Below are positions 1 through 38,241 of a stretch of 47,298 nt of DNA, one piece after another. The stretch spans positions 1-47,298 of the forward strand of contig JAENWX010000001.1 of NCBI GenBank assembly GCA_016649835.1. Direction: 5' to 3'. Under the pieces are notes generated by a model. The model saw only the letters and a list, made by a program, of their open reading frames with translations, was not told the DNA's origin and ran no database searches. This DNA comes from Minisyncoccota bacterium. Its GTDB lineage: Bacteria > Patescibacteriota > Minisyncoccia > Phycocordibacterales > UBA9973. Each line of letters begins with the position of its first letter. The first letter of the stretch is position 1. The position numbers were made by a program, and so were the translations under genes.

Positions 1-37
1 ATAAAATTTTATCTTCGTAAACTTTATCAATAAAAAA

Positions 38-70
38 GTCCTCGGATGAGGGAGGACGAGGAGCCAGACA
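38..70. repeat. GC-rich palindromic element, copy 1 (intergenic)
   Basis: GTCCTCGGATGAGGGAGGACGAGGAGCCAGACA. GTCCTC/GAGGAC can pair. Flanked by A-run/T-run inverted arms (31-80). Differs at a single position from the copy at 29231-29263. Confidence 0.7.
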
Positions 71-2622: not shown

Positions 2623-5600
2623 ATGCAAAATTACGATCATATAAAAATTGAAAAAAAATGGCAAAAAGAGTGGAGTAAAAATGAAATATACAAAACCTTA
2701 AATAAAGGTAAAAAAATGTATGTACTCGACATGTTCCCATATCCTTCTGGCGTGGGTCTTCATGTTGGCCACCCACGTGGCTATATAGGTAGTGATGTAT
2801 ATGCTCGTATGAAAAGAATGGAGGGTTTTAATGTGCTCCATCCTATGGGTTATGATGCTTTTGGTTTACCCGCAGAACAATATGCATTACAGCATAAAAT
2901 ACACCCTAAAAAAGCCGTAGATGAAAATGTAAAAACTTTTGAAAGACAGCTTTCTATTATTGGGCTTTCTTATGATTGGACTCGTAAGGTCAATACAACC
3001 GACCCAAAATATTATAAATGGACACAATGGATATTCCTTCAAATTTATAATTCTTGGTATGATAAAACTCAAAATAAAGCTCGTCCTATTTCAGAGCTTG
3101 AAAGTCTATTTGAAAAGAATGGTAATGAAAAAATAAATGCCGAATGTAACTCAGACACAGAATTTTTTTCATCAAAAGAGTGGAAGTTATTTTCTAAAAT
3201 AGAAAAACACAACATACTCATGCAATACCGTCTTGCTTATGAAGGACACAGTGAAGTAAATTGGTGTGAAGAAATGGGAACTGTTCTCGCTAATGATGAA
3301 ATAACAAACGACAAAAATGGTAACCCCGTTTCAGAGAGAGGAGGATTCCCGGTTATAAAAAAATCCATGCGCCAATGGTTCATGCGAATTACAGCTTATG
3401 CAGACAGGCTGCTTTCTGGTCTTGATGGATTGGAATGGAGTGACCATATAAAAGAAATTCAAAAGAACTGGATAGGAAAGAGTGATGGTAGTGAAATAGA
3501 ATTTAAGATTCGAGTCCCTGGAAAGTTTTCTTCAGGTCCTCGCCTGCCCGACCTTGCGGTTGTTCGGGCGGGGACGAGGGAGGACGAGGGGCCAGACCAT
3601 TCAGAAAATTTTTCCAGAGACTCTCTTTCTATAAAAGTTTTTACAACCCGCGCAGATACTATTTTTGGTGCGACTTATGTAGTTCTGGCGCCGGAACATC
3701 CATTAATTAATAATTACAAATTACTAATTACTAATTGGAGAGAGATAGAAGAATATATTAATGAAATAAAAAATAAGACCGATGAAGACAGAGTAAAAAA
3801 TGATAAAGAAAAAACAGGAGTAGAACTAAAAGGTATCAAAGCTATCAATCCCGCAAACGGAGAAGAGGTACCAGTTTGGATAGCTGACTACGTGCTTGCT
3901 ACTTATGGGACAGGAGCTGTTATGGCTGTGCCTGCACATGATGAAAGAGATTTTGAATTTGCGAATAAGTATGATTTGGCACTCAAGCAGGTTGTTGTTT
4001 CTAATAATTTATTAAAATCAATAGTTGTAAGTACAACCTTGGATAACGATATTGATTTTAAGTATCAGTTACAAAAAAGTAAAATTGACTTTACTTTATC
4101 AATAAGTTCAATAAGCAATCGCGAGCATATTAGAGTTGAATTAAAAAAAGAAAATCTTCAAGAGTTTATTAATATTGTACAGAAATATATAAAAGAAAAA
4201 TGTTGGGTTGAGATACTTGGAAATGAAAATATAATTGTACTTAAAAACGAAGTTCATAAAGATTTTCTGAATCACTCAGAAGAGTGGTTTAAGAAATTTT
4301 TAGAATGGGAACCTTTTATTAAAGGACAGAAAAATTTATGGGATATGCTTTCTAAAAATACTTTTTTTCAAAATTTAGTTTGTTATCAAGATGATGGAAT
4401 ATTAACTAATTCAGGAAAATTTAATGGTTTAACTTCCGAAGAAGCCCGCGCACAAATTACGAAATTTGTAAATGGAAAAATAGTTACAAAATTTAAAATG
4501 AGAGATGCAATATTTGCTCGTCAAAGATATTGGGGTGAGCCAATTCCACTTAAACATAACCCAGATGGAACAACAACAGAAGTAAAAGAAAAAAATCTTC
4601 CTTTAGAATTACCAAACATTAAATCTTATGTTTCAACTGGTACAGGTGAGTCTCCACTTGCAGGAGTTAAGTCTTGGGTGAAGGAAGGCTATGAGACAAA
4701 CACAATGCCTGGATGGGCTGGGTCTTCTTGGTACTTCTTGCGTTATATGGATCCTCAGAATAGTAAAGCTTTTGCGTCTAAAAAATCTCTTGAGTACTGG
4801 AAAGATGTAGATGTGTATGTTGGCGGACTCGAGCATGCTACTGGGCATTTACTCTACTCTCGTTTTTGGAATAATTTCTTATTTGATTTAGGTCATGTTC
4901 CAACAAGAGAACCATTTAAAAAACTTAGAAATCAAGGAATGATTTTGGCTAGTGATGGACGTAAAATGAGTAAAAGATGGAATAATGTAGTAAACCCAGA
5001 TGACATAGTAAAAAACTATGGAGCAGATACTTTGCGTATATATGAAATGTTCATGGGACCATTTGAACAAAGCCTACCATGGTCTACAGAAAGCATTATT
5101 GGCTCACGAAGATTTATAGACCGCGTCTTTAGACTTCAATCTAAAGTTACAAATAAAAAAAGTGACATAGAAGTAGAAAAAATTTTTCACAAAACACTTA
5201 AAAAGGTTAGTGAAGATATAGAAAATTTTGCTTTCAATACGGCAGTTTCTTCAATGATGATTTTATTAAATGAAATAGAAAAGTTTGAAAATATTGGAAA
5301 AGCTGAGTTTAAAATTTTATTACAGATGTTAGCTCCTTTCGCTCCTCACGTAACAGAAGAACTTTGGTCTAATACAGGAGAAAAGAAATCCATCCATAAA
5401 AGTTCTTGGCCTAAATGGGACAAAAATAAAATTGTTGATGATATGATTAAAATTGCTGTTCAAGTAAATGGTAAAGTAAGAACAGAAATTATGATATCAA
5501 AAGATATGTCAGAATCTGAAATTAAAGAAATGGCGCTAAAAGATAAAAATATTTTAACCTGGACAGAAGGAAAAGAAATAAAAAGAGTTATATATGTTCC

Positions 5601-5915: not shown

Positions 5916-6003
5916 AGAAAAGTATTTTAAGGATATCGGCTATCCGAAATATTAAAAATACTAAATCTTGTTCATCCGAGATATTCTTATAAATCTATAC
6001 ATA

Positions 6004-15000: not shown

Positions 15001-16026
15001 AACATAGGCAACGTCGGCATCGGGACGACGAATCCGAGTACAAATAAATTGGTTGTCGTCGGAGATATAAGAGTTGGAACAACTGGTACAGATGGTTGTA
15101 TACAAAGATTCGATGGTACAGCTCTCACCGGTTCTTGTTCATCAGATATTAGATTAAAGAAAGACATTAATTCTATCACAGGAGTTTTAGAAAACTTTGT
15201 TAACCTAAATCCAGTTACTTACAAATGGAGAGCTGATGAGTACCCAGAGAGAGGATTTGGTACAGGTATGGTTACAGGTTTAATTGCTCAAGAAGTAGAA
15301 GGTATCTTTCCTGAATTAGTAAACAAAGACAGTCAGGACTTCTTTACAGTAGACTACGGAGTGAATTTACAAATGCTATCCATACAAGCGATTAAGGAAC
15401 TCAATTTGAAAGTGGAAGATTTGTCTTCGCTTGATATAAAAAATCCTACTTCATTTGGATCTCTTATTAAATATTTCTTAGCCGATATTAGTAATGGCTT
15501 AGAGAAGATTTTTGTTAAAGAGGTAAATACTGACACTTTGTGTGTTTACGATGCTACAGGAGCCAAAACCTGTATAAATAAGGCTCAATTGGACGCATTG
15601 TTGGTTGGTGTCGGAACGACTTATAGTGGTTCCAGTAGTAGTTCAAGTGAGAGTAATGTTGTTCTATCAAGTTTTGATGAGAATTTAGTAAATGCTAAAA
15701 CAGAAGCCAATGGAAAAATAGAAACAGATTATACATCAGAAAGTTGGGGAACATTTAATTCAGCATTAACTCTAGATTTAGAATTATCAGAGACAAATGA
15801 TGAAGAAAAAATTACAAAAACAAATGCCATCAATGATGCAATTTCAGGATTAGAATTATTAATAGTGGAAGAAGTTGTTGATGTACTACCAGAGGAAGTT
15901 CCTCCAGCTGAAGAGCCGGTGGTTGAAGCTCCAGCGGAAGAACCCGTAGTTGAAGCTCCAGCGGAAGAGCCGGTAGTTGAGCCAACAGCAGTTGAAACGA
16001 TAGTTGAGCCAGCTCCAGTAGAATAA
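6004..16026 (+). CDS. Giant (~3340 aa) membrane-anchored repetitive surface protein: HTH-like N-terminus, one TM, and a Peptidase S74-like intramolecular chaperone motif in the C-terminal region
   Basis: One uninterrupted ORF; the track starts at TTG 5968 and the first ATG is 6004. The N-terminus LSLNQAAEISGYTQDYLGYLVRIGEIKGVKKGGVWFITKEEL resembles an excisionase/MerR-type HTH, followed by the TM FLVSALIIFVGLSSVGAYLF. A T/G/S/N-rich region follows, then 17 modules containing NGNVGIGTT. CSSDIRLKKDI...LIAQEVEGIFPELV matches the tail-fibre autoproteolysis motif. Confidence 0.85.
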   Translation: MQLLDNIISLNQAAEISGYTQDYLGYLVRIGEIKGVKKGGVWFITKEELNDYLLKKKPIQTDSNTKDFFQKIWHKKIDVKDFISHLSPRNFLVSALIIFVGLSSVGAYLFEKNNYNQTLSSAFQSFVLSDHTEEVKANKIGDLLSNVSDGLAYGWSEFTFEILDDIKNSTNTTKELVAFVGAEVANRVQLVGDRITSVLNNTKKFFTNTKKFVAVVKTPVPDRKVPLGSSLKASAIDSLKSGSDSLTSISTGLANGWITFTDWILNNIKNSIIGTKEFAVSVGDGAKFVGNSITNEITSQRTVISAWGHSIPSKIVSIWNSTKKFVIDFISQPPKLIVKSPIVIPPSLTTTAPTIKVEVPEPEASSIAGSQRPATSASGSTTIIQRIYEQPQTTIINQVDPTLFSRIQGIELALLNNISHNSNQTNRIYDSVGRSISGASNNITEEGTLNNTTINDATLVNFTSTGNALFTKVPTLAHAFDPSWPSDISNVSNSSLYINPASSVLDGNLLGLAVGGVVKFLVDTEGDIYGNSLILTGSVTQGNTTVENLTVGGNIILGDASTDTLTINSANWTFANDTNFALSGGLNGLSFDTDTLFIDSLNHRIGIGTTNPGSKLEVAGTFSQTGANTFGTGTGVISLNGATTITGINTFTTGTGTVEFKNVSTNISSINPVIDTTDATSTLSINTVTNRPTTFGTGLVTIPNLLITNSQGNNGTMGITSSATTETIFSVTGASLTSGTGIAENITANANNGEITKGHTITITDATVGGGGYTALSISTSGAGVGLGNKYLLDMNPGANKEVVFDSAGAFRPTTSVASNTNTIGSSDFYWKNGYFDQITANNISGVVVGGATSSTSWTIGSTQVADVNESLIFYRNNLGAGNASLQWNAGAGDLRHFTVNYPFNATYTVNDTSITTGVNLYSGNLVNNTTTGTQKLLSLTNTGTGTTETGIYIGNTGTGTTALEVAGTWTNGIITNNNSINAGSGAITGGAGTFTTLNGNTITTGTGILTISAGKTLTISDSTTFGTNAITLAGGEVITFSPANALSLLTTGGTSVTLPTTGTLATLAGAEALTNKTIVAGSNTISGIINANLSGTAGISNANLANSTISGISLGGTLPTLTFGTHLSGISYNGSTAVTIATDATDANTAGTIVSRDAFGNFSAGAITSGLINSQTISSNASFTGTVNAVTGYKLNGIATSGNVLRGDGINFVNATLGGSDITGAALTKTDDTNITLTLGGTPATSLLRATSLTLGWSGLLSPARGGTGVNNGTNTLTLGGNLITSGAFATTLTTSGITALTLPTSGTLYSTATGSITSLSVLTSVSDETGSGALVFATSPTLVTPVLGAATATTVNALTLTAAADGFTIAGGTVSRTLTVTGADASISGTHTGTSSGTNTGDNATNSQYSGLAASKLDTGLALLLAGGTMTGGITNSTSVNPLTTLAESWIGPSSTTGVYFNGGNVGIGNTSPDSKLSINSSTDNVSIMTLRFPSGSNADKVGILFKGNDGTYNINYAEMIGGVENWSNDDGFIGFRTAKATTLAERMRLTSNGTLEVGFNYTGTSGTLANGMIVEGNVGIGTTNPAQKLHVEGSPAIGTTGTESMLLLGRALSGGVSFNQAAAFKLGRWQNAGGTYESFTRLDIALKDDDAVNDYSTDVTVMSLQNNGNVGIGTTSPNANLEVVGATGIIQTINTTAEGLGYFTTLKSEYASNTGYLAFAGGGGTGKVIGGAAYGVDTVLFANNTERVRILNNGNVGIGTTSPQAKLQIGSNINTIPASTALSTVGGTTIRFLNGDGNADYGSYLASGGTAQLTLGSRYASIDTDVLTVNNGNVGIGTTGPGAKLDVVGTSVAGGAEGIYVSNTTSGNANKALLGVTSATFSYGSLGGNETVLFNAATSPISLVTADAQPIKFITNYAEAMRIQSNGNVGIGTTAPGEKLEVNGKIKVLGAFGSIIGYRSFGSNFSMDSSGVYTTTDTHASYGYSGMVASWGSLHFFANEVATTAGQTITPSEKMTILGASGNVGIGTTNPVSALNVAGTTGLTWGNGSSPSKGLLTVGSQGTGGSSLFVNTPGYASTFGAGFGVDGTFSGSTATINLKAFGIFPGDTGWGSNLTFSTTLDNTLNERMRMDKNGNVGIGTTGPTAKLEVGGNFIGSAPVDAIVIRALTDGQYQGGFINWKANIASSNFSLSKIYGGRDNVEASSKLGFFTNSDIYNVADLSSEKMTILGNGNVGIGTTSPGSKLDVNGTIAVRQSSNGTSGTPLETIGLLGTNSLGNTGIPMPSINFVNSWTTNNNSWMNFHVRNNTIDTVAMTLLYNGNVGIGTTAPMYKLDLGNTSLDSNTLRFGVGTRNSTGAQYPAKIDLYVYDANPVNQYLRFYAPNGNPSGATEADRQTLGMVINGNGNVGIGTTSPATQMHIVGVGQRTAALTDAGAKGSTLFLEDPTSDTGTGGAITFGGGAANGSVPQAAIKLLLSNGGANGTGDLAFSTRNVASDVALTERMRILNNGNVGIGTVGPGALLHLGKAGSLNESDTAFDLADSDTLLKLENTGPSYGSETALSLGATVSSAYRPAGLITGKFWGPSDFNSGRLGFSTSNSGTLGLRMVIDETGNVGIGTTSPQVPLTIYGSSGNVDINVGSRNGVATGKALVLRYNLTDDYGQIASYDYATGAKNLVINPIGGNVGIGTTAPQAKLTIKGNQLFAGNPDIGSYGKLEAVYDGNIATYGTAASIDFYRPIATYGNEGEIRFSTSPGVGGVSTPTQRMVIDKNGNVGIGMTAPGAKLDVVYPGTIGTSLTTLRAFGYDADSYFSVSNDANNSANVALYRSDTIKMFEVLGHTGKAYFNGNVGIGTTGPSGKLDVAGGTAYFSGLSTAARQVIGLSSDGVTNQIQSTYLGASSFVPLAFQVGGGEKVRILTNGNVGIGTTGPTYKLEVNGGATSPLSVYSSSDYQLGLRNTGDAGGWWLKSYGAGAFALHENGIGDKLTFDDSATGNVYFQNIGNVGIGTTNPSTNKLVVVGDIRVGTTGTDGCIQRFDGTALTGSCSSDIRLKKDINSITGVLENFVNLNPVTYKWRADEYPERGFGTGMVTGLIAQEVEGIFPELVNKDSQDFFTVDYGVNLQMLSIQAIKELNLKVEDLSSLDIKNPTSFGSLIKYFLADISNGLEKIFVKEVNTDTLCVYDATGAKTCINKAQLDALLVGVGTTYSGSSSSSSESNVVLSSFDENLVNAKTEANGKIETDYTSESWGTFNSALTLDLELSETNDEEKITKTNAINDAISGLELLIVEEVVDVLPEEVPPAEEPVVEAPAEEPVVEAPAEEPVVEPTAVETIVEPAPVE
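10738..15030 (+). repeat. 17 in-frame copies of the GC-rich core GGCAACGTCGGCATCGGGACGACG
   Basis: Core starts at 10738, 11014, 11272, 11506, 11791, 12076, 12412, 12703, 12967, 13222, 13534, 13843, 14053, 14320, 14545, 14764 and 15007. Fourteen copies are identical over 24 nt and three differ by 1-2 nt. Spacings of 210-336 nt are all multiples of 3. Confidence 0.95.
15907..15987 (+). repeat. 27-nt tandem repeat x3 encoding AEEPVVEAP
   Basis: Read directly at the extreme C-terminus of the giant ORF. Confidence 0.85.
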
Positions 16027-20222: not shown

Positions 20223-20255
20223 TCTTCAGAAAGGGCCTTAGGCCCTTTCTGAAGA
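20223..20255. repeat. REP-like perfect palindrome, copy 1 (inverted orientation)
   Basis: TCTTCAGAAAGGGCC-tta-GGCCCTTTCTGAAGA, 15-bp stem. It begins 8 nt after the murJ stop and lies 26 nt upstream of the transposase ATG. Confidence 0.85.
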
Positions 20256-20265
20256 ATTCGTATTA

Positions 20266-20274
20266 TGATATAAT
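20266..20274 (+). promoter_or_regulatory. Candidate extended -10 (TGATATAAT) giving a leaderless transposase mRNA
   Basis: TGnTATAAT ends 6 nt before ATG 20281. Confidence 0.35.
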
Positions 20275-20280
20275 ATTACA

Positions 20281-20955
20281 ATGAGAAAACAACCTATTAT
20301 TACAGGTGAGTATTATCACATATATAACCGTGGAGTTGATAAACGAGATGTTTTTAGTGATAAAATGGATATTAGACGTTTTGTTGAAAGTATAAATGAA
20401 TTTAATCAAGTTGATGTAATAGGAAGTTTGATTAATTTAAGAAAATCTAAAAATATCCAGAAAGGGCCTAAGGCCCTTTCTGAGGAACCATTAGTTGTTA
20501 TAATGGTATATTGTTTGAATCCAAATCATTTTCACTTTGTCTTGAAGCAATTAGAAGATGGAGGAATATCAAAGTTTATGCAAAAATTACAAAGTGGATA
20601 TACTTCTTATTTTAATGTAAAAAATTCTAGATCCGGTTCACTATTCCAGGGAACTTTTAAAGCACAACATATAGGTAGTGAAAATTATTTTAATAAAACT
20701 CTCGGATATGTAAATAAAAATTATCAAGTTCATAATATTCCAGAGGATAAAAAAGAATTAGTTTTTGCCAGTGATTATGAATATGAAAATAATAATTTTA
20801 AAATTGTTTCAAAAATAGAGGGAAATAGAATTTTAGAAATTTTTGGTGGAGTTGGTGGATTTAAAAGACATTCAGATGAAATAGTTGAGATTATTAGGAA
20901 GGAAAGAGGCAAGACTTCTCTTTTAGAAGATGAAGAATTACCAGAAAGGGCCTAA
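20281..20955 (+). CDS. HUH/Y1 transposase, IS200-like, REP-associated (RAYT-like)
   Basis: 224 aa. YHIYNRGVDKRDVF, HUH motif in NPNHFHFVLK, GYTSYFN, and GSLFQGTFKAQHI (compare the G.WQ.RF..H pattern of RAYTs). The palindrome occurs upstream, inside, and at the stop codon. Confidence 0.7.
   Translation: MRKQPIITGEYYHIYNRGVDKRDVFSDKMDIRRFVESINEFNQVDVIGSLINLRKSKNIQKGPKALSEEPLVVIMVYCLNPNHFHFVLKQLEDGGISKFMQKLQSGYTSYFNVKNSRSGSLFQGTFKAQHIGSENYFNKTLGYVNKNYQVHNIPEDKKELVFASDYEYENNNFKIVSKIEGNRILEIFGGVGGFKRHSDEIVEIIRKERGKTSLLEDEELPERA
20458..20482. repeat. REP-like palindrome, copy 2, in frame inside the transposase ORF
   Basis: CAGAAAGGGCC-taa-GGCCCTTTCTG, read in frame as QKGPKALSE. Confidence 0.85.
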
Positions 20956-20966
20956 GGCCCTTTCTG
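20942..20966. repeat. REP-like palindrome, copy 3, supplying the transposase stop codon
   Basis: CAGAAAGGGCC-taa-GGCCCTTTCTG. The loop TAA (20953-20955) is the ORF stop, in a different frame from copy 2. Followed by (GAGT)3. Confidence 0.85.
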
Positions 20967-23576: not shown

Positions 23577-23647
23577 GCGAGTATAATACAGTGGCAGTAT
23601 ATTTGCTTCCCAAGCAAAATACGCGGGTTCGATTCCCGCTACTCGCA
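23577..23647 (+). tRNA. tRNA-Gly (anticodon CCC)
   Basis: Hand-folded cloverleaf. Acceptor GCGAGTA/TACTCGC, D stem ATAC/GTAT, anticodon stem TTTGC/GCAAA, loop TTCCCAA, 4-nt variable loop, T arm GCGGG-TTCGATT-CCCGC, discriminator A. No encoded CCA. Confidence 0.9.
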
Positions 23648-23688
23648 CATATTAAAAAACACTTTTTGGAGTGTTTTTTAATATGTGC
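23645..23688. terminator. AT-rich 19-bp perfect palindrome (terminator-like) overlapping the tRNA-Gly 3' end
   Basis: GCACATATTAAAAAACACT-ttttgg-AGTGTTTTTTAATATGTGC. Confidence 0.55.
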
Positions 23689-23806
23689 GGGATAGCAAGC
23701 CAACTGCTTGGCTTGCGTACGGGAATTGAAAGACTTTTCGTTCTCTGATGTTAACCAGAGCAAAAAGTACCTGAACATGTAATGTTCGATTCCCGCTACT
23801 CGCACC
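23686..23806 (+). ncRNA. tRNA-tethered structured element, copy A (Gly)
   Basis: GCGGGATA; P2 23695-23716 (GCAAGCCAA-ctgc-TTGGCTTGC); CGGGAATTGAA (23720-23730) pairs with TTCGATTCCCG (23785-23795); AGAC; P4 CTTTTC...GAAAAG; TACC; P5 23773-23787 (GAACA-tgtaa-TGTTC). 23785-23804 is an exact copy of the tRNA-Gly 3' end. Strand and RNA status are unproven. Confidence 0.5.
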
Positions 23807-24138: not shown

Positions 24139-24160
24139 TAATTTAATTTACAATGACGTA

Positions 24161-24199
24161 TTATAAGAGCATTCAGGTTTTACCTGAATGCTCTTATAA
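24161..24199 (+). terminator. Intrinsic terminator-like hairpin after grx
   Basis: TTATAAGAGCATTCAGG-tttta-CCTGAATGCTCTTATAA, 17-bp stem, ending 3 nt before tRNA-Arg. Confidence 0.6.
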
Positions 24200-24202
24200 T
24201 TT

Positions 24203-24274
24203 GCCCACGTAGTTCAATGGATAGAATAGCTCACTCCTAACGAGCTGATTCAGGTTCGACTCCTGACGAGGGCA
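24203..24274 (+). tRNA. tRNA-Arg (anticodon CCT)
   Basis: Hand-folded. Acceptor GCCCACG/CGAGGGC with an A5-A68 mismatch, D stem GTTC/GAAT, anticodon stem GCTCA/CGAGC (one A-C), loop CTCCTAA, T arm TCAGG-TTCGACT-CCTGA. Confidence 0.75.
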
Positions 24275-24315
24275 CAATAAATAAACCTTAAAAAGGTTTA
24301 TTTATTGTGCCCTCG
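24267..24315. terminator. 23-bp perfect palindrome spanning the tRNA-Arg acceptor 3' strand and the start of element B
   Basis: CGAGGGCACAATAAATAAACCTT-aaaa-AAGGTTTATTTATTGTGCCCTCG. Confidence 0.55.
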
Positions 24316-24454
24316 AGCAAGACAACTGCTTGTCTTGCGTTCAGGAGTCGAAGACCTTGAACTTATTTTTAAAAATTTAAATTTTAAAAAATGTGAAAGG
24401 TGTACTGATTCTGTAAGAATCGACAAGCGTATTCGCGGTCCTGACGAGAGCACC
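24309..24454 (+). ncRNA. tRNA-tethered structured element, copy B (Arg)
   Basis: GCCCTCG; P2 24317-24338 (GCAAGACAA-ctgc-TTGTCTTGC); TCAGGAGTCGAA = reverse complement of the tRNA-Arg T loop plus 3' T stem; GACC; long AT-rich P4; TGTAC; P5 24407-24421 (GATTC-tgtaa-GAATC); 3' TTCGCGGTCCTGACGAGAGCA (24432-24452). Confidence 0.5.
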
Positions 24455-26380: not shown

Positions 26381-28573
26381 CTACGCCTTCGGCCACTTCT
26401 CAACAATTAATAATCTCTTATTTTCAACTGCCCCGCCTGCAGAAGCATTTCGGGCAGGCATCATGCCCCATATTTCTTCTGTAACAAAAGGCATAAATGG
26501 ATGAAGAATTTTTATAGATTTTTCTAAAATTTCAACCAACAAAGTTTGTCTTGATTGCTTTGCTTTTTCATCGTCACCAGCAATAATTGGTTTACTTTCC
26601 TCTATAATTTTATCAGCAAATTTATCCCATATGTAATGATATATTTTTTCAGATGCCATATAAAAACGAAAGTTTTCCATATCATTAGTTATATCTTTAA
26701 TTTCAGTATCAAGTTCACCCATTATATTTCTATCAATTTCATTTAGTTCTGATTTATGAAATTTTTCTGGAATATTAGAAAATACAAATCTTGATATGTT
26801 CCATAATTTATTTGCAAAATTTTTATATCCTTTAATTCTATCTCTTGAAAGGGCAAGATCCATTCCAGGAGTATTTCCAACCACAAGTGCTATTCGCAGT
26901 GCGTCTGCTCCAAAAATATCAATAAGTTCTACAGGATTAACAACGTTACCTTTTGATTTACTCATTTTTTCTCCCTTCTCATCATTTACTAATCCATGGA
27001 GATAAACATTTTGAAAGGCGACTTCGTTGCGTAAATATAATCCAAAAATAACCATTCTTGGTATCCATTTAAAAATTAGGTCTCGGCCTGTTTCCATCAC
27101 ACTAGTAGGATGATATATATCTAAATCTTTTGTATTAGGGTATCCAAGAGAAAGAAGTGTCCATTGTCCAGAAGAGAACCATGTATCAAATGTATCAGTA
27201 TCTTTTCTGAGTTCTCCTCCACAATCACATTTTTTTAATTCATTGTTTAAATCAGAAAATCCTTTTTTGCAAACATTACATATTTTAGCTGGAATAGGAA
27301 TACCCCAGACAATCTGCCTTGATATATTCCAGTCAATAGTATTTGTCATCCAATATCTAAAAATTTTTTCATAATTTTCTGGATAGAATTTTATTTTGCC
27401 ACTATTTACAGCATCTAGTGCTCGGTCTGCAAGAGGTCTCATTTTAACAAACCACTGGTCTTTAATTTGTGGTTCTATAATAGTGTTACATTTAAAACAC
27501 ACTTTTACATTGTGTTTATAAGATTCATCTATTTTAACTAAAAGTCCTTTTTCTTTTAACTTTTCAACAATCATGGGTCTTGCTTTAGAAATGTGAATTC
27601 CTTCAAATTCTCCAGATATAGCCAGTAGTTTTCCTTTCCAGTCTATTATTTGCTCCTTTTCTAGGTTGTGTCTTTCTGCTATCTCAAAGTCAACTTGGTC
27701 GTGCCATGGAGTTATGGTCATAACTCCTGTTCCAAATTCCATATCAACACTTTCATCTTTTATTATTGTTGCAGTAATGGGACCATTTATCCATTCCAGT
27801 TCTATTTTTTGACCATCTTTATATTCCTCGTATCTTTTATCTTTTGGATGCATTACTACGTATTTATCTCCGAATTTTGTTTCAGGACGAGAAGTACTTA
27901 TTACAAAAGGACCATATTGAAGATAATAAAATTGTTCAGTTCGTTCTTCAAATTCAGTTTCAACTTCAGAAAGGGAAGTCTGATGTTTGGCACACCAGTT
28001 TACGATACGGTCACCACGATAGATTAATCCATCTTTAAACATTTTGTCAAAAGTTTCTTGAACGGTTTTTACTATTTCTGGGTCCAGTGTAAATTTTTCT
28101 CTTGACCAGTCACAAGATGCTCCAAGTCTACGAATATCATCTTCCATGAATTTTTTATTAGAAATAGTAAAATCATATATTTCTTTATATAAATCTTCTG
28201 GTGTCATTTCAAATCTAGAACGGCCTTCTTTTTCTAATTTACGTTCATAAACAATTTGAGTTTCAAATCCAGCGTGGTCGGCTCCCGGTACCCATAGAGT
28301 ACGTTCACCTTTCATTCGATGATATCTTGTCATTATGTCTTCAAGTGTTACGAAAAGTGCATGTCCAGCATGTAGTCGTCCGTTTGCATTTGGTGGAGGC
28401 ATTACTATTGTGAAAGGTTTTGCTTCTTTATCTGTCACACCTTTTTCAATACAAATATCTGGATTAAAATATCCACTTTCTTCCCATAGTTTGTAAATAC
28501 GATCCTCTGTTTCTTTGGGGTCATATGGTTTTAAAAATTTCGGGTTTATGTTATTGTTCTGGTCATTATTCAT
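26381..28573 (-). CDS. valS: Valine--tRNA ligase (short form, no C-terminal coiled coil)
   Basis: 730 aa. PPPNANGRLHAGHAL, KMSKSKGN, and a Cys-rich insertion (CNVCKK...CDCGG). Confidence 0.9.
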   Translation of the reverse strand: MNNDQNNNINPKFLKPYDPKETEDRIYKLWEESGYFNPDICIEKGVTDKEAKPFTIVMPPPNANGRLHAGHALFVTLEDIMTRYHRMKGERTLWVPGADHAGFETQIVYERKLEKEGRSRFEMTPEDLYKEIYDFTISNKKFMEDDIRRLGASCDWSREKFTLDPEIVKTVQETFDKMFKDGLIYRGDRIVNWCAKHQTSLSEVETEFEERTEQFYYLQYGPFVISTSRPETKFGDKYVVMHPKDKRYEEYKDGQKIELEWINGPITATIIKDESVDMEFGTGVMTITPWHDQVDFEIAERHNLEKEQIIDWKGKLLAISGEFEGIHISKARPMIVEKLKEKGLLVKIDESYKHNVKVCFKCNTIIEPQIKDQWFVKMRPLADRALDAVNSGKIKFYPENYEKIFRYWMTNTIDWNISRQIVWGIPIPAKICNVCKKGFSDLNNELKKCDCGGELRKDTDTFDTWFSSGQWTLLSLGYPNTKDLDIYHPTSVMETGRDLIFKWIPRMVIFGLYLRNEVAFQNVYLHGLVNDEKGEKMSKSKGNVVNPVELIDIFGADALRIALVVGNTPGMDLALSRDRIKGYKNFANKLWNISRFVFSNIPEKFHKSELNEIDRNIMGELDTEIKDITNDMENFRFYMASEKIYHYIWDKFADKIIEESKPIIAGDDEKAKQSRQTLLVEILEKSIKILHPFMPFVTEEIWGMMPARNASAGGAVENKRLLIVEKWPKA
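26432..26458 (-). repeat. CCTGCC...GGCGGG hairpin element in valS (sense orientation, in frame)
   Basis: Minus strand: GCCTGCCCGAAATGCTTCTGCAGGCGGGG, encoding MPARNASAGGA near the C-terminus. Confidence 0.65.
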
Positions 28574-28733: not shown

Positions 28734-30086
28734 TTATAAGGATAAATTTCCTTGTGCCTTTATTGAATTTATGTTTTTTACTATTTTATTATTTTGATAT
28801 TGAAAGTATCCTGCAATAGCAATCATAAGAGCATTGTCACCAGTTAAATTTTTGGAAGGAAAATGAACATTGGTTTTAAGTTTGTCTGCCGATGAGGCAC
28901 GATTATTTTCTTTAATTTTTTCTATTATTGTTGTTTGTAAATGTTTATTTGCAGAAACACCGCCACCTACTATCAATGTATTTATTTTATATTGCTTTAT
29001 TGCCTTAATGGTTTTATGAGTAAGCACCTCTACAACAGAGTCTTCAAATTCTCTTGCTATTTTTTGTTTAATATTACCTTTTTCTAAAATATTTGGATTT
29101 TTTTCTTTTAAATCTCTTATCAAATATAGCACCGCTGTCTTTAGTCCAGAAAATGAAAAATCATAATCCTTAGAATATATCATTGGTCTAGGTAATTTAA
29201 TTTGCTCCAGAGTATTATCTGATTTTTCAGGTCCTCGGATGAGGGAGGACGAGGTGCCAGACCGTGAAAAATCAGACAATACTCTTCCGCTTACGTTTTC
29301 TCTTTCAATATTAGCTATCTTTGAAATCTCTGGTCCTCCAGGGTATGGTAGTCCCAGCATGCGAGCTACTTTATCAAAAGCTTCTCCTGCTGCATCGTCG
29401 CGAGTTTGTCCTATTTTTTTATATTTCATCCAGTCTTTTATTAGTATCAGTTCTGTGTGTCCTCCTGAAACCAAAAGAGAGAGCATTGGGAAAATAATTT
29501 CTTTCTCACTAATTGTGAAAGTTTTTTCTTTTTTAGGAAATATAGAAAAAATATGACCTTCCATGTGGTTTACTTTTACTATTGGAATATTCCAGTAAAT
29601 ACTTAATGCCTTAGCAAAACTAATTCCCACCCAAAGAGCAGGGACCAACCCTGGTCCTGTTGTTACAGCAATAGCATCTATGTTGGGTTTTTTAATAAAT
29701 GGAATATGTTTAGGCCATAGTTCTTTGAGCTCTGTTTCTCTCTCTAGAATTTTATCAATTTTTTTAAAATCTTTGTCAGTATATAATGCTGTTTTATTTT
29801 TTTTGTATAGTTTTGCTTCTTTTAGTACTTTTTCTAAAATATTTATTATATTTTTCCCGTGTTCACGCTTGGCCATCATGGGGAAAACACCACCATATTC
29901 AGCGTGTATAGCTATTTGTGAAGACAAATCATTACCAAGAATTTTAAATTTAGTTTTAGATCCAGATTGATGTACTTCTATTACAGCAAGAGCCGTCTCA
30001 TCACAGGATGTCTCTATGGCCAATATTTTCATCCCAGTACTAAAATTTTTAATATTTATTTTTACTTTTTTAATATTTTTATTCAT
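28734..30086 (-). CDS. tsaD: tRNA N6-adenosine threonylcarbamoyltransferase TsaD
   Basis: 450 aa. ILAIETSCDETALAV, HMEGHIF, SGGHTEL, DFSFSGLKTAV. The true start may be the internal MKILAIE (30032). Confidence 0.9.
   Translation of the reverse strand: MNKNIKKVKINIKNFSTGMKILAIETSCDETALAVIEVHQSGSKTKFKILGNDLSSQIAIHAEYGGVFPMMAKREHGKNIINILEKVLKEAKLYKKNKTALYTDKDFKKIDKILERETELKELWPKHIPFIKKPNIDAIAVTTGPGLVPALWVGISFAKALSIYWNIPIVKVNHMEGHIFSIFPKKEKTFTISEKEIIFPMLSLLVSGGHTELILIKDWMKYKKIGQTRDDAAGEAFDKVARMLGLPYPGGPEISKIANIERENVSGRVLSDFSRSGTSSSLIRGPEKSDNTLEQIKLPRPMIYSKDYDFSFSGLKTAVLYLIRDLKEKNPNILEKGNIKQKIAREFEDSVVEVLTHKTIKAIKQYKINTLIVGGGVSANKHLQTTIIEKIKENNRASSADKLKTNVHFPSKNLTGDNALMIAIAGYFQYQNNKIVKNINSIKAQGNLSL
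29218..29276. repeat. GC-rich palindromic element, copy 3, in frame (antisense orientation) inside tsaD
   Basis: Core GTCCTCGGATGAGGGAGGACGAGGTGCCAGACC (29231-29263), flanked by a perfect inverted repeat TCTGATTTTTCA / TGAAAAATCAGA. Encodes ...SGTSSSLIRGPEKSD... inside an insertion before LPRPM. Confidence 0.8.
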
Positions 30087-30790: not shown

Positions 30791-32221
30791 ATGAAAATAT
30801 TAAATGAAGTAATAGATAATATAAAAATAATAGAAATTCACGGTAATCTAGAAACTCGTGTTTCTTCTATATCTTTAAATTCTAAAAATATTGAACCCCG
30901 CTCAGTCTTTGTAGCGCTAGAGGGTAATATTATAGATGGACATGTTTTTATTGATGAAGTTATAGAAAAGGGAGCTACTGCAATAGTCTACGAGCATGGT
31001 CCAATTGAATTTAAAAATGGCATAACTTATATAAAAGTAGCAGATACACATAGTGCTGCTGGTATTATGGCTGGTAATTTTTATGGGAATCCATCTCGTA
31101 AATTAAAATTAGTGGGTATTACAGGAACAAATGGAAAGACAACTACCGCCACACTTCTACATCAGTTATTTAGAGATTTGGGTCATAAAGTTGGAATGAT
31201 TGGTACGATTGTAAATAAAATAAACGATGAATCATATGAGGCAGTTAGAACAACCCCAGATCCTATAAACCTAAATAGACTACTCGCAGAAATGGTAGAC
31301 CATGGCTGTGAATATTGTTTTATGGAAGTTTCGTCGCATTCTGTTTGTGAAAAAAGAATAGAAGGACTTTCTTTCTTTGGAGGAATTTTTACAAATCTTA
31401 CATTAGACCATTTAGACTATCATAAAACATTAGAAAATTATTGTGATGCTAAAAAAAGATTTTTTGATATGTTACCTGTGTCTGGTTTTGCAATTGCAAA
31501 TATAGATGATGACAAAGGGGAGTATATGCTAAGTCATACAAAGGCCCAGAAATATACTCTTAGCTTGAAAAAAGATGCAGATTTTAATCAAAGATTTGAA
31601 AGTAAACTTATTGGTGAATTTAACGCATATAATATTTTAGGAGTTTATGCGGTTGCAGTTTTACTTTTATATGGAGATAAACCTGCCCGACTTGATAGTC
31701 ATTCAGGCGGGGATAAAGTAAAAGAAGCTATAAAAAACTTAGAAGCAGTGTCAGGAAGATTTCAGTCTATAAAATCAGAAGATGAAGTTACTGGTATTGT
31801 AGACTATGCGCATACTCCAGATGCGTTAGAAAATGTTTTAAAAACAATAAATGAAATTAAAAGCTTAAATAAAGTAATATCTGTTATTGGTTGTGGGGGA
31901 GACCGAGATAAAACCAAGCGCCCAATAATGGCTCGCATCGGTTATGAAATGAGTGACTTTCTAATCATCACATCAGATAATCCACGTGGAGAATTACCGG
32001 AAGACATTTTGAATGATATGCAAAAAGGATTACCGGCTGAAAGTGAAAATAAAACTGAAATTATTATAGATAGACATGTTGCCATTGCTAGAGCCTGCAG
32101 TATTGCGCAAAAAGGAGATTATATTTTAATAGCAGGTAAGGGCCATGAAAAATATCAAGAAGTGAAAGGATTAAAAACTTATTTTGATGACATGGAAGAG
32201 TTAGAAAAATACTTGCTCTAA
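30791..32221 (+). CDS. murE: UDP-N-acetylmuramoyl-L-alanyl-D-glutamate--2,6-diaminopimelate ligase
   Basis: 476 aa. GITGTNGKTTT, DYAHTPDAL, GCGGDRDKTKRP, ITSDNPRGE (DNPR motif). Confidence 0.9.
   Translation: MKILNEVIDNIKIIEIHGNLETRVSSISLNSKNIEPRSVFVALEGNIIDGHVFIDEVIEKGATAIVYEHGPIEFKNGITYIKVADTHSAAGIMAGNFYGNPSRKLKLVGITGTNGKTTTATLLHQLFRDLGHKVGMIGTIVNKINDESYEAVRTTPDPINLNRLLAEMVDHGCEYCFMEVSSHSVCEKRIEGLSFFGGIFTNLTLDHLDYHKTLENYCDAKKRFFDMLPVSGFAIANIDDDKGEYMLSHTKAQKYTLSLKKDADFNQRFESKLIGEFNAYNILGVYAVAVLLLYGDKPARLDSHSGGDKVKEAIKNLEAVSGRFQSIKSEDEVTGIVDYAHTPDALENVLKTINEIKSLNKVISVIGCGGDRDKTKRPIMARIGYEMSDFLIITSDNPRGELPEDILNDMQKGLPAESENKTEIIIDRHVAIARACSIAQKGDYILIAGKGHEKYQEVKGLKTYFDDMEELEKYLL
31682..31711 (+). 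repeat. CCTGCC...GGCGGG hairpin element in murE (sense, in frame)
   Basis: CCTGCCCGACTTGATAGTCATTCAGGCGGG encodes PARLDSHSGG inside LLLYGDK...DKVKEAI. Confidence 0.65.
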
Positions 32222-32259: not shown

Positions 32260-33723
32260 ATGACGGGATACAAACAACTATTTAAAGGAAAGAAAATCAC
32301 AGTCATGGGTTTGGGCATCCTCGGTCGCGGATTAGGTTATACAAAATTTTTAGCAGAATGCGGAGCAGACTTAATAGTTACCGACTTAAAAACAAAAGAG
32401 CAACTTAAGTCTTCAGTAGAAGAAATTAAGAATTACGAATTAAGAATTAAGAATAAAAAGAAAATTAAATTTGTATTAGGAGAACATAGACTCGAGGATT
32501 TTAGAGATAGAGATATGATTATAAAGGCGGCTGGCGTTCCTTTTGATTCTATCTATATAAATGAAGCTCAAAAAAACAATATTCCCATTGAAATGGATGT
32601 ATCTCTTTTTTCAAAATGCGCGCCTGGCGTGATGCTTATTGGCGTAACAGGTACAAGGGGTAAATCAATGACCACTACACTTATATATGAGATATTGAAA
32701 GCCAATGAAAAATTATTAAAAAATAATGCTTGCCCGACTGGGAATTCTTTTAGGCGGGTTTATGTTGGTGGTAATTTAAGAGGCATGGCAACATTGCCAC
32801 TGCTGAAAAAAGTAAAAAGTCGCGCTTCAATGGACACTGCGCGAATGAGCCCCCAGGATGATTTTGGTAAATCATCTGCAGAATCAGATATTTTGGTATG
32901 TGAATTAGATTCATGGCAACTACAAGGTTTTGGTGATTCTAAAATTTCTCCACATATCTCTGTATTCACTACATTTATGCCAGACCATATGAATTATTAT
33001 AAAAATTCTATGGAAAAATATTTTGACGATAAAGCAAATATTTTTAAATATCAAAACGGGAATGATGTTTTAATAATACGTCCAAATATGAAGAAATTAA
33101 TACCCAAAAATATCAAAAGTAAGTTAATTGTTATAAATAAAAAAGAGTTAGATGGTTGGAAATTTATTGTCCCAGGAGAGCATCAAAGGGAAAATCTGGC
33201 TTGTGCAGTTAAGGTTGCAGAACAATTAAATATTCCTATATCTAAAATTAAAAAAGTTGTAAGTGGCTTTAAAGGACTAGAAGGACGCTTAGAACTTTTG
33301 AAAGTTTACAAGGGAATTAAAATTTATAATGATAACAATGCAACGACGCCCGAAGCAACGGTTGCTGGAATAGAAGCATTGTCTTCCGCTAGGACTGTCC
33401 TAGCGGAGAAAAAAATAGTGTTGATTTGTGGAGGCGCAGATAAAAATTTATTGCTAGATAATTTAATTAAAAAAGTTAATCAGAATTGTAAATTTGTATC
33501 TCTAATATCTGGGAGTGGAACGAATAAATTTTTATCAAGTCACAAGTTAAAAGTTGAAAGTTATCAAGCTAAGGACTTGAAAGATGCAATTAAAAAAGCA
33601 TTAGAAAAAGCAAAAAAGGGAGATATAGTTTTGTTTTCTCCAGCCTTCGCATCTTTTGGAATGTTCAACAACGAATATGAGCGCAATGATTTGTTTATGA
33701 AAATAATTAAAAATTTAAAATAA
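32260..33723 (+). CDS. murD: UDP-N-acetylmuramoylalanine--D-glutamate ligase
   Basis: 487 aa. N-terminal GLGILGRG Rossmann motif, GVTGTRGKSMTT, ELDSWQL, NDNNATTPEA. Confidence 0.85.
   Translation: MTGYKQLFKGKKITVMGLGILGRGLGYTKFLAECGADLIVTDLKTKEQLKSSVEEIKNYELRIKNKKKIKFVLGEHRLEDFRDRDMIIKAAGVPFDSIYINEAQKNNIPIEMDVSLFSKCAPGVMLIGVTGTRGKSMTTTLIYEILKANEKLLKNNACPTGNSFRRVYVGGNLRGMATLPLLKKVKSRASMDTARMSPQDDFGKSSAESDILVCELDSWQLQGFGDSKISPHISVFTTFMPDHMNYYKNSMEKYFDDKANIFKYQNGNDVLIIRPNMKKLIPKNIKSKLIVINKKELDGWKFIVPGEHQRENLACAVKVAEQLNIPISKIKKVVSGFKGLEGRLELLKVYKGIKIYNDNNATTPEATVAGIEALSSARTVLAEKKIVLICGGADKNLLLDNLIKKVNQNCKFVSLISGSGTNKFLSSHKLKVESYQAKDLKDAIKKALEKAKKGDIVLFSPAFASFGMFNNEYERNDLFMKIIKNLK
32424..32454 (+). 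repeat. Heptamer repeat run in frame inside murD
   Basis: AATTAAG AATTACG AATTAAG AATTAAG AAT encodes IKNYELRIKN. Confidence 0.8.
32729..32758 (+). repeat. CTTGCC...GGCGGG hairpin element in murD (sense, in frame)
   Basis: CTTGCCCGACTGGGAATTCTTTTAGGCGGG encodes ACPTGNSFRRV. Confidence 0.6.
33385..33407 (+). repeat. Perfect 11-bp-arm palindrome inside murD
   Basis: TCCGCTAGGAC-t-GTCCTAGCGGA encodes SARTVLAE. Confidence 0.7.
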
Positions 33724-38159: not shown

Positions 38160-38179
38160 CCTGCCTTCCGGTAGGCAGG
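38160..38179 (+). repeat. CCTGCC...GGCAGG hairpin (intergenic relative of the in-gene hairpin family)
   Basis: CCTGCC-ttccggta-GGCAGG. The T-G position of the in-gene copies is a T-A pair here. Confidence 0.5.
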
Positions 38180-38185
38180 GGTTTA

Positions 38186-38241
38186 CCCCCACACCTATAT
38201 TTATGACAGGCTTTAGCCTGTCATAAATATAGGTGTGGGGG
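38186..38241. repeat. 26-bp perfect palindrome flanked by a GGTTTAC direct repeat
   Basis: CCCCCACACCTATATTTATGACAGGC-ttta-GCCTGTCATAAATATAGGTGTGGGGG, with GGTTTAC at 38179-38185 and 38241-38247. Confidence 0.8.

What the first reader, a model, noticed from the sequence alone, without database searches (positions are those of the whole stretch)
31682..31711. Hairpin family CCTGCC(CGA)-N-GGCGGG found only in the sense orientation of four essential genes, with a conserved G-T wobble
**In-gene copies.**
- leuS 3543-3572 (+).
- valS 26432-26458 (gene on the minus strand; element read on the minus strand).
- murE 31682-31711 (+).
- murD 32729-32758 (+; CTTGCC variant with two wobbles).

All four are in frame, at non-homologous positions in the proteins, and in at least two reading frames (PAR... 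versus RLPD...).

**Evidence for an RNA hairpin.**
- In every in-gene copy the stem needs T-G pairing that works only on the mRNA-sense strand.
- An intergenic relative at 38160-38179 has the compensated T-A pair (CCTGCC/GGCAGG).

Strand-consistent wobble suggests an RNA-level hairpin, such as a processing, stability or pausing signal, spread by insertion rather than a purely DNA-level palindrome.
Basis: seen in the sequence. Interest (0 to 1): 0.6.

Follow-up and report, generated by a model that had tools for sequence, protein, structure and literature searches.

The report
In-frame hairpin mini-insertions in CPR genes
Four housekeeping genes of this tiny-genome (Paceibacteria/CPR) bacterium each carry a 27-30-base GC-rich hairpin that was inserted in frame and is missing from most orthologues, a miniature version of the "selfish DNA inside protein genes" known from Rickettsia.

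Summary
C[CT]TGCC-N15-18-GGCGGG occurs four times in the window (leuS, valS, murE, murD), against 0.01-0.02 expected by chance. Codon-level alignments with orthologues show that each copy is a clean in-frame insertion of 27 or 30 nt with no target-site duplication. Each is absent from most relatives. The leuS copy is nested inside another palindromic insertion.

In 487 kb of related Paceibacteria DNA I found 21 copies at about 12 independent sites. They are 21-36 nt long, always a multiple of 3, and fall into three subfamilies that share the outer arms and the T·G. All are sense to the host gene (p~0.001), and 10 of 12 sites read Pro-Ala-[Ser/Arg]…Gly-Gly.

- Both strands fold about equally well (-11.4 vs -10.4 kcal/mol).
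- Old copies decay to AT-rich sequence while the peptide loop stays.
- The preferred frame is the only one of six free of stops, Cys and Arg clusters.

Best reading: a REP/RPE-like family of mobile protein-coding mini-palindromes, filtered by peptide tolerance. A Y1/HUH (RayT-like) transposase gene sits in the window, but it is flanked by a different hairpin family, so the mobiliser is inferred, not shown. I found nothing about such elements in CPR in the literature searched. No RNA data were available.

The parts
31682..31711 (+). murE copy, 30 nt, subfamily i. It encodes PARLDSHSGG (MurE residues 298-307).
   Evidence: One search gives the sequence. The copy is absent from 15 of 20 orthologous loci, including L002, which is 94% identical in nucleotides. 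It lies in a loop with pLDDT below 50 between helices 279-294 and 304-315.
32729..32758 (+). murD copy, 30 nt, CTTGCC variant. It sits in codon phase 1 and encodes (A)CPTGNSFRR.
   Evidence: One search gives the sequence. It is a clean 30-nt insertion at AATG|TTTATG and is absent from all 12 other orthologues.
26432..26458 (-). valS copy, 27 nt, phase 0. It encodes PARNASAGG near the C-terminus.
   Evidence: One search gives the sequence. It is present only in the window and L003 among the 17 loci. L284 carries a subfamily-ii copy at the same site. The insertion lies immediately 5' of the native Pro-Ile codons.
3543..3572 (+). leuS copy, 30 nt, phase 2. It encodes (R)LPDLAVVRAG and is nested inside a family B palindrome.
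   Evidence: One search gives the sequence. LeuS alignment A4 shows FSSGPR[LPDLAVVRAG]TREDEG in the window against FSSGPRM-REDKG in P0121 and P0125. The L282 DNA lacks the 30 nt.
3520..3615 (+). Family B palindromic insertion in leuS, about 90 nt, which hosts the nested copy.
   Evidence: Other family B copies lie at 33-68 (intergenic) and 29209-29285 (tsaD, antisense).
38160..38179 (.). Intergenic perfect palindrome CCTGCCTTCCGGTAGGCAGG. It is a possible perfect-stem relative of the family.
   Evidence: It is absent from the corresponding spacer in L003. In-gene perfect relatives occur in L290, L006 and L289.
20281..20955 (+). Y1/HUH (IS200-like, RayT-like) transposase gene. It is the candidate class of mobilising enzyme; the link to the family is not demonstrated.
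   Evidence: Pfam Y1_Tnp scores 30.8 bits against a cutoff of 23. NCBIfam REP_Tyr_transpos scores 27.9, below its cutoff of 80. An HUH motif NHFHF is present. The top fold hits are IS608 TnpA and the E. coli RAYT structure 4ER8, from a low-confidence model.
20223..20255 (.). Family C hairpin upstream of the transposase gene (CAGAAAGGGCC-TTA-GGCCCTTTCTG). Further copies lie at 20458-20482 and 20942-20966.
   Evidence: The identical trio of hairpins is found around the homologue in L291.

Best explanation
The CCTGCC…GGCGGG hairpins are copies of a family of very small (21-36 nt) GC-rich, imperfectly palindromic insertion elements. They have spread at the DNA level into protein-coding genes of AT-rich Paceibacteria (CPR) genomes.

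**Shown**
- Each copy is a precise insertion with no target-site duplication.
- Every length is a multiple of three.
- The inserts lie in variable stretches of the proteins: an inter-domain loop in MurE, C-terminal tails, and other inserts.
- Copies can nest inside other palindromic inserts.
- They are patchily distributed among close relatives.
- They decay towards AT-rich sequence with time while the extra peptide loop remains.

**Inferred**
- They are selfish or neutral 'protein-coding palindromes' of the REP/RPE kind, not functional RNA signals.
- Copies persist only where the encoded peptide is tolerated. This would explain why nearly all read Pro-Ala-[Ser/Arg]…[Gln/Ser]-Gly-Gly, the only one of the six possible readings without stops, Cys or Arg clusters.
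- They are moved as single-stranded hairpins by a hairpin-specific enzyme such as a Y1/HUH (RayT/IS200-like) transposase. One such gene lies in the window. This would fit the conserved asymmetric T·G mismatch and the lack of target duplication.
- Filled alleles also spread between lineages by homologous recombination.
For: **Not chance**
- 4 copies against 0.0075-0.02 expected.

**Clean insertions**
- Shown against orthologues.
- The empty murE allele is seen in contigs of related populations.

**Wider family**
- 21 copies in 487 kb of Paceibacteria loci, at about 12 independent sites, with lengths 21/24/27/30/33/36.
- Three subfamilies share the outer arms and the T·G but have different, internally complementary inner stems.
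- Near-identical 21-mers occur in four places of one 21-kb locus, plus a tandem triplet (L284).
- Nesting is seen twice.

**Conservation relative to the host gene**
- The murE element matches 29/30 between the window and L003, while the gene is 79% identical.

**Decay**
- Remnants in L013, L015 and L286.

**Peptide filter**
- Sense phase 0 is the only benign frame.
- The perfect palindrome CCTGCCTGCGCAGGCAGG in L290 has no orientation, yet all four copies sit in the single benign phase, LPAQAG.
- The MurE insert lies in a low-confidence loop.

**Candidate mobiliser**
- A Y1/HUH transposase is present with its own conserved flanking hairpins.
Against: - No mobilising enzyme is linked to this family. 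The window's RayT-like gene is flanked by a different hairpin (family C), and the family lacks the GTAG/CGTC tag of classical REPs.
- No conserved target sequence was found.
- No intergenic or antisense copy was seen at all. A peptide filter alone does not fully explain this, because the two young window-specific copies (leuS, murD) sit in 'bad' phases yet are still sense.
- The sample is about 12 sites from syntenic loci, not whole genomes.
- High sequence conservation of orthologous copies could also mean nucleotide-level selection.
Confidence: 0.6

Rival explanations
1. A functional mRNA hairpin. The sense-strand RNA stem, stabilised by G·U, would act as a processing, stability or translational pausing signal, and would be kept in sense orientation by selection.
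For: - Strict sense orientation at about 12 of 12 sites.
- The T·G is retained in all three subfamilies. C-to-T changes in the left arm (CTTGCC, CCTGTCC) keep G·U pairing on the sense strand.
- Orthologous copies are more conserved than the host genes.
- The MurE copy lies at a domain boundary.
Against: - The sense strand is only about 1 kcal/mol more stable than the antisense, and 6 of 18 copies favour the antisense.
- The sense strand carries a C·A mismatch that the antisense lacks.
- z-scores against shuffles are modest for three of the four window copies.
- The copies are absent from most orthologues, including a 94%-identical one.
- The hairpin decays while the peptide stays.
- There is no Rfam match.
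- No RNA data were available.
Confidence: 0.12
2. The orientation is set by the insertion mechanism, not by selection. A strand-specific single-strand DNA transposase (Y1/HUH, RayT-like) would paste the hairpin's active strand into the non-template strand exposed during transcription, so copies are always sense. The peptide filter would then only shape the codon phase.
For: - Copies follow gene direction in divergently oriented neighbours within 5 kb (valS and tsaD on one strand, murE on the other). Replication direction therefore cannot be the cause.
- The young window-specific copies are in non-preferred phases but still sense.
- Insertion is precise with no target duplication, and the asymmetric mismatch is conserved, as in IS200/IS605 and REP hairpins (established knowledge; PDB 2VIC and 4ER8 appear among the fold hits).
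- A Y1 transposase gene lies in the window.
Against: - There is no conserved target tetranucleotide and no cognate flanking of the transposase gene by this family.
- Transcription-coupled targeting is not established for this enzyme family.
- Only about 5 young sites exist, so the statistics are weak.
Confidence: 0.2
3. A protein-level module. The Pro-Ala-Ser…Gln-Gly-Gly peptide would be a useful flexible linker or loop, recruited repeatedly and spread by recombination, and the DNA palindrome would be incidental.
For: - The reading-frame bias is strong, at 10 of 12 sites.
- A tandem PASPSQGG x3 resembles a linker expansion.
- The peptide is retained after the hairpin has decayed.
Against: - Codons are identical and rare for a 32%-GC genome (GCC, GGC, GGG) across unrelated genes.
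- Copies exist in other phases (leuS, murD).
- Palindromic inner stems covary between subfamilies.
- Most orthologues do without the insert.
Confidence: 0.06
4. Chance or compositional coincidence, or an assembly artefact.
For: The arms are short (6 nt). GC-rich genomes give many random matches.
Against: - Expected count is 0.01-0.02 against 4 observed in this 34%-GC window.
- The same elements occur in independent assemblies from NCBI, JGI, ENA and Logan.
Confidence: 0.01

Closest known systems
Rickettsia palindromic elements (RPEs; Ogata et al. 2000, as summarised in PMC10969869 and PMC2229807)
   Same: Both are repeated palindromic DNA inserted in frame into conserved housekeeping genes of a small AT-rich genome. 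Both are absent from orthologues, are translated as extra peptide segments, and have an unknown mobilising mechanism.
   Different: RPEs are 105-150 bp (35-50 aa). These elements are 21-36 nt (7-12 aa). There is no sequence relation, and the lineage is different (CPR/Paceibacteria). Roughly half of RPEs are intergenic, whereas no intergenic T·G copy was seen here.
REP elements and their RAYT (REP-associated tyrosine transposase) genes
   Same: Both are 20-40-nt GC-rich imperfect palindromes with a conserved mismatch and no target duplication. A RayT-like Y1/HUH gene is present in the window, flanked by hairpins.
   Different: REPs are extragenic and carry a GTAG or CGTC tag (PMC3733652). These elements are intragenic, lack the tag, and are not the hairpins that flank the RayT-like gene.
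Coding palindromic repeats of Methanocaldococcus jannaschii (Suyama, Lathe & Bork 2005; the title is cited in PMC2229807, the details are from my memory)
   Same: Both are short hairpin-forming repeats found inside protein-coding genes with coding potential.
   Different: The M. jannaschii repeats are in an archaeon and unrelated in sequence. I could not read the paper, so orientation and phase behaviour cannot be compared.
Mitochondrial GC clusters, repetitive hairpin elements (sponges, PMC2800124) and yeast 'byp' bypass elements (my knowledge; mentioned in PMC8211752)
   Same: Both are GC-rich mobile hairpins invading AT-rich genomes, including coding regions.
   Different: Byps are skipped by the ribosome and need not be multiples of three or open. 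Here all copies are open and multiples of three, so they are most likely translated. These elements are in bacterial, not organellar, genomes.

Membership tests
REP/RAYT system | A short (20-40 nt) GC-rich imperfect palindrome repeated in the genome. | tested here: met
   The copies are 21-36 nt with a conserved T·G (and C·A) mismatch, and there are 21 copies in 487 kb of related loci.
REP/RAYT system | Extragenic location. | tested here: not met
   All T·G copies lie inside ORFs.
REP/RAYT system | A conserved GTAG or CGTC tetranucleotide at the hairpin foot. | tested here: not met
   The flanks differ at every site (…TCG|, …ATG|, …AAA|, …AAG|, …TGG|), and no tag is present.
REP/RAYT system | A RAYT gene flanked by the same REPs. 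| tested here: not met
   The Y1/HUH gene at 20281-20955 is flanked by family C hairpins, not by CCTGCC…GGCGGG. The same is true in L291. Another RAYT elsewhere in the genome cannot be excluded.
Protein-coding palindromes of the RPE kind | In-frame insertion into conserved genes, absent from orthologues. | tested here: met
Protein-coding palindromes of the RPE kind | Element size of about 100-150 bp and sequence homology to RPE families. | tested here: not met
   The elements are 21-36 nt. Homology to RPE sequences was not tested, because no RPE sequences were at hand.
Protein-coding palindromes of the RPE kind | Insert located where the protein fold tolerates it (surface loop). | tested here: inconclusive
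   For MurE, the insert lies in a loop with pLDDT below 50 between two helices, in a model with mean pLDDT 78.9. The other hosts were judged only from alignment variability and C-terminal position.
MITE | Terminal inverted repeats plus a target-site duplication. | tested here: not met
   The arms act as inverted repeats, but no duplication longer than 1 nt occurs at any of the aligned sites.
Intrinsic terminator | A GC-rich hairpin followed by a U-run, at a gene end. | tested here: not met
   No T-run follows any copy, and the copies are internal to ORFs.
Translational bypass (byp / T4 gene 60 type) | A non-translated gap whose length is not constrained to multiples of three, often containing stops. 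| tested here: not met
   All 21 copies are multiples of three and open in the host frame.
Any Rfam RNA family | A covariance-model match. | tested here: not met
   Only tRNAs reach the gathering threshold. Nothing credible appears at E≤10 around two of the copies.
Y1/HUH (IS200/IS605-RayT) transposase (for ORF 20281-20955) | HUH motif, catalytic Tyr helix and the β-α-β-β-α-β fold. | tested here: met
   Pfam Y1_Tnp scores above its cutoff. The NHFHF motif and GYVNKNY are present. Fold hits include 2VIC, 2A6M and 4ER8, although the model has a mean pLDDT of only 57.6. The NCBIfam RAYT equivalog cutoff is not reached.

The most novel reading that the evidence does not exclude
Paceibacteria (CPR) may carry an undescribed class of 'intragenic REPs'. 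These would be 21-36-nt hairpins pasted strand-specifically, always sense and therefore probably into the non-template strand of transcribed genes, by a domesticated Y1/HUH RayT-like enzyme. They would continually create and nest new 7-12-residue loops in essential proteins. That would be both a new targeting mode for single-strand transposition and a general source of the protein insertions typical of CPR.
Probability: 0.2. Interest if true: 0.8.

Novelty: new variant of a known kind. Interest (0 to 1): 0.6.

Why it matters
Selfish DNA that survives inside essential protein genes is rare. Rickettsia is the textbook case.

Here the same phenomenon appears in miniature in CPR bacteria, whose proteins are known for unexplained extra segments. 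It comes with unusually clean features:
- precise insertion;
- nesting;
- a strict sense orientation;
- a single preferred reading frame;
- visible decay series.

It offers a concrete, testable source of new surface loops in aminoacyl-tRNA synthetases and Mur ligases. It is also a possible natural substrate for the very widespread RayT-like transposases of these genomes.

For annotation, it warns that short GC-rich islands in AT-rich CPR genes are insertions, not conserved motifs.

Tried and rejected
- **Pattern scan of public collections.** I therefore did not spend the genome or metagenome scans on the pattern.
- **L208 hit.** CCTGCCCGCCGCGTTAGCGGCGGG turned out to be the native lipoate-ligase motif RRxSGGG in a 44%-GC genome. 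I rejected it as a false positive.
- **Window 9316-9354.** This hit lies in the GC-richer giant ORF and matches only the loosened pattern, so I treated it as chance.
- **RNA evidence.** No RNA run holds the locus.
- **Population polymorphism.** Contigs of the four source permafrost runs show no empty allele for the murD copy, but contigs drop rare variants.
- **Target-site duplication at murE.** The GATAAA on both sides was rejected after comparison with empty alleles.
- **Independent re-insertion at the valS site.** Whether the window and L003 gained their copies separately or by recombination could not be decided. ValS is mosaic, and its C-terminal 50 columns are conserved in all lineages.
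- **Phage contig L177.** It has no relative in the annotated phage collection.
- **RPE paper.** PMC186582 is not held in the library.
Full report
**1. What is there**

- The host ORFs are LeuS (2623-5628), ValS (26381-28573, minus strand), MurE (30791-32221) and a MurD-like ligase (32260-33723) by Pfam.
- The window is about 34% GC overall, with most 1-kb bins at 28-35%. Its closest protein relatives are named Candidatus Nomurabacteria or Paceibacterota, so it comes from a CPR bacterium. Public runs that hold it are permafrost metagenomes.
- Every TGCCCGA in the window is one of the four copies, and each is followed 10-14 nt later by GGCGGG.
- The full pattern occurs 4 times, against 0.0075 expected from a first-order Markov model and 0.02 from 300-nt block shuffles.
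- The hairpin-forming element is absent from 1.16 Mb of Bacteroidota control loci. The strict pattern gave a single hit there, in 62%-GC L051. A loosened pattern gave 12 hits of mixed orientation.

**2. Each copy is an insertion**

- *MurE.* An alignment of 25 MurE orthologues shows the segment KPARLDSHSGGD as an 11-residue extra present in a patchy subset. It is absent from most 465-aa proteins, including P0001, which is 95% identical. At the DNA level the 94%-identical L002 gene has GGCCTTGATAAGGGT where the window has TTATATGGAGATAAA + 30 nt + GAT. L003 is 79% identical overall but carries the element with 29/30 identity.
- *MurD.* Codon-level alignments over 13-20 syntenic Paceibacteria loci show the murD copy as a clean 30-nt insertion at AATG|TTTATG, found only in the window.
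- *ValS.* The valS copy is a 27-nt insertion just 5' of the native Pro-Ile codons. It is found only in the window and L003 among the 17 loci.
- *MurE across loci.* The murE copy is present in the window, L003 and L004, with AT-rich remnants in L013 and L015.
- *LeuS.* The leuS copy is nested. Relatives have FSSGPRM-REDKGPD, itself an insertion absent from most LeuS, while the window has FSSGPR[LPDLAVVRAG]TREDEGPD. The host is a ~90-nt palindrome, 'family B', which also occurs at 33-68 and in tsaD.
- *Related populations.* Contigs from related populations show the empty murE junction.
- *Target sites.* No site shows a target duplication longer than one ambiguous base.

**3. The family beyond the window**

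In 487 kb of Paceibacteria loci there are 21 convincing copies.

| Site | Loci |
|---|---|
| valS, same internal site | window, L003, L284 (variant arms in L003 and L284) |
| valS, C-terminal site | L004, L284 (decayed in L286) |
| tsaD, site a | L011, L284 |
| tsaD, site b | L284, L288 |
| tsaD, third site (with a nested second hairpin) | L289 |
| murE | window, L003, L004, L284, L288, L289 (right arm GGCAGG in L286) |
| murD N-terminus | L288 |
| Mur-ligase N-terminus (three tandem 24-mers) | L284 |
| pth | L291 |
| murD, second site (weaker arms) | L017 |

- A 45%-GC contig of another lineage (L244) has a near-identical copy inside an unknown protein.
- Lengths are 21, 24, 27, 30, 33 and 36 nt.
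- Three subfamilies share the outer arms CCTGCC/GGCGGG, including the T·G. Their inner stems differ but are each self-complementary: CGA…TCA, TCG(ACT)…(AGT)CAA, and CGCCCTC…GGGAGnA.
- In L284, four 21-mers differ only in the loop (ATG, ACG, AAG). This points to recent proliferation.

**4. Orientation and phase**

- Counting orthologous copies once, about 12 independent sites are all sense (two-sided binomial about 0.001, computed for 11 of 11).
- Ten of the 12 start exactly at a codon boundary and read Pro-Ala-[Ser/Arg]…[Gln/Ser]-Gly-Gly (p about 0.001, computed for at least 9 of 11).
- Copies follow the gene in divergently transcribed neighbours only a few kb apart (valS and tsaD against murE). 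Replication direction is therefore not the cause.
- Translating each subfamily in all six readings shows that sense phase 0 is the only reading free of stops, Cys and Arg clusters.
- The orientation-less perfect palindrome CCTGCCTGCGCAGGCAGG of L290 sits in its single benign phase (LPAQAG) in all four copies in that locus. A fifth site is visible at protein level in P0022.
- The phase bias is thus well explained by a peptide filter.
- The orientation bias is only partly explained. The two young, window-specific copies (leuS, murD) use 'bad' phases yet are still sense.

**5. RNA hairpin or not**

- The outer 6-bp stem does need T·G. However, the 9-bp stem seen in most copies has U·G at position 3 plus C·A at position 7 or 8 on the sense strand, and the mirror image on the antisense strand.
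- Predicted energies are -11.4 (sense) against -10.4 kcal/mol (antisense) on average. The sense strand is better in 12 of 18 copies.
- Only the leuS copy stands out from shuffles (z -3.1). The other three have z between -1.2 and -2.0.
- There is no Rfam match.
- Old copies lose the arms but keep the 7-10 extra residues (L013 and L015 murE; L286 valS tail).
- This argues against a long-term requirement for the hairpin.
- No RNA run holds the locus, so processing or pausing is untested.

**6. Where the inserts sit in the proteins**

- An AlphaFold2 model of MurE (mean pLDDT 78.9) puts residues 296-305 in a loop with pLDDT below 50, between helices 279-294 and 304-315. This lies between the Pfam middle domain (110-289) and the C-terminal domain (322-451).
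- Other copies lie in a C-terminal tail, in alignment-variable stretches, or inside earlier inserts.

**7. A candidate mobilising enzyme class**

- ORF 20281-20955 is a Y1/HUH transposase. Evidence is Pfam Y1_Tnp above its cutoff, the motif NHFHF, and fold hits to IS608 TnpA, ISDra2 TnpA and the E. coli REP-associated transposase 4ER8. The model is poor (mean pLDDT 57.6).
- It belongs to a very conserved family in Paceibacteria (more than 4000 hits), which JGI calls 'REP element-mobilizing transposase RayT'.
- It is flanked by, and contains, three copies of a different perfect hairpin (family C). The same trio is found in L291.
- Such enzymes recognise imperfect single-strand hairpins and insert without duplication, which fits the anatomy. 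However, the CCTGCC family does not flank the gene and lacks the GTAG/CGTC tag of classical REPs (PMC3733652).
- The link is therefore an inference.

**8. Comparison with the known, and novelty**

- The closest analogues are the Rickettsia palindromic elements, which insert in frame in conserved genes and are 105-150 bp (PMC10969869, PMC2229807).
- Others are the coding palindromes of M. jannaschii (cited in PMC2229807), REP/RAYT systems, and the GC-rich hairpins of mitochondrial genomes (PMC2800124).
- The present family is three to five times shorter than RPEs. It is intragenic in every copy seen, strictly sense, and in a lineage for which my literature searches found no description.
- I file it as a new variant of a known kind.

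**9. Limits**

- The sample is syntenic loci, not whole genomes.
- Some orthology calls (same-site copies of different subfamily) could hide independent insertions.
- No experiment or RNA data bear on function.
- The mobilising mechanism is unknown.

Noticed in passing
window 20223-20966; L291 9947-10686: A RayT-like Y1/HUH transposase gene carries an identical trio of perfect hairpins (CAGAAAGGGCC-TAA-GGCCCTTTCTG) upstream, inside the ORF (encoding QKGPKALSE) and at its 3' end (encoding the conserved C-terminus PERA plus the stop). The arrangement is conserved between genomes whose protein is 88% identical. The gene is absent between murJ and lepA in L282 and L288.
   Followed up: partly
window 33-68, 3520-3615, 29209-29285: A second family ('B') of ~90-nt palindromic elements has the core GTCCTCGGAYGAGGGAGGACGAGG. 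One copy is intergenic, one is in leuS (sense) and one is in tsaD (antisense). In relatives the tsaD copy occurs in both orientations.
   Followed up: partly
window 32818-32880 and 33385-33407: MurD holds two more in-frame hairpin-containing inserts, both absent from L003. One encodes SRASMDTARMSPQDDFGKSSA. The other is the 10-bp-stem palindrome TCCGCTAGGA-CTG-TCCTAGCGGA.
   Followed up: partly
window 2623-5628 (LeuS residues ~455-610): The 1001-aa LeuS carries a ~150-residue insert at the position where many Paceibacteria LeuS homologues carry a NUDIX domain (PF00293). The window's insert resembles that of P0169 and is not NUDIX.
   Followed up: no
window 26381-28573 compared with L003 5245-7455: ValS is mosaic among these genomes. 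The window and L003 proteins are 48% identical although MurE and MurD are about 80% identical. The editing-domain region falls into two types, at about 88% and 40% identity.
   Followed up: partly
window 5968-16026: A giant 3352-aa ORF starts with TTG and has 41-46% GC over most of its length, against about 32% for its surroundings.
   Followed up: no
L002 797-1048; L284 11435-13144; L288 11511-13205; L289 6151-9606: Variable genes sit next to murE in relatives. L002 has a free-standing GIY-YIG ORF upstream of murE. L284, L288 and L289 have one or two ~570-aa Cys-rich ORFs with weak treble-clef zinc-finger matches wedged between murE and murD.
   Followed up: partly
L289 3593-3640 (tsaD, minus strand): This is a second nested case. 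A 27-nt perfect-stem hairpin (CCAGCCTGCCCTACGGGAGCCGGCAGG) is inserted inside a subfamily-iii CCTGCCCGCCCTC…GAGCAGGCGGG element.
   Followed up: partly
L144, L100, L177/L150, L184, L191, L109 (IMG/VR contigs, 41-49% GC): These contigs hold intergenic hairpins CCTGCCCGA-N-TCAGGCGGG with the same two mismatches. Some are in tandem, and some are flanked by short tandem repeats (CGTGAATG, CGAGTTR). The host and any relation to the CPR family are unknown.
   Followed up: partly
window 23644-23689, 24160-24200, 24267-24315, 38186-38241: Long perfect hairpins (19-26-bp stems) lie next to the tRNA genes and downstream of the PBP gene. A repeated small hairpin, GCAAGNCAA-CTGC-TTGNCTTGC, occurs at 23695-23716 and 24317-24338.
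   Followed up: no
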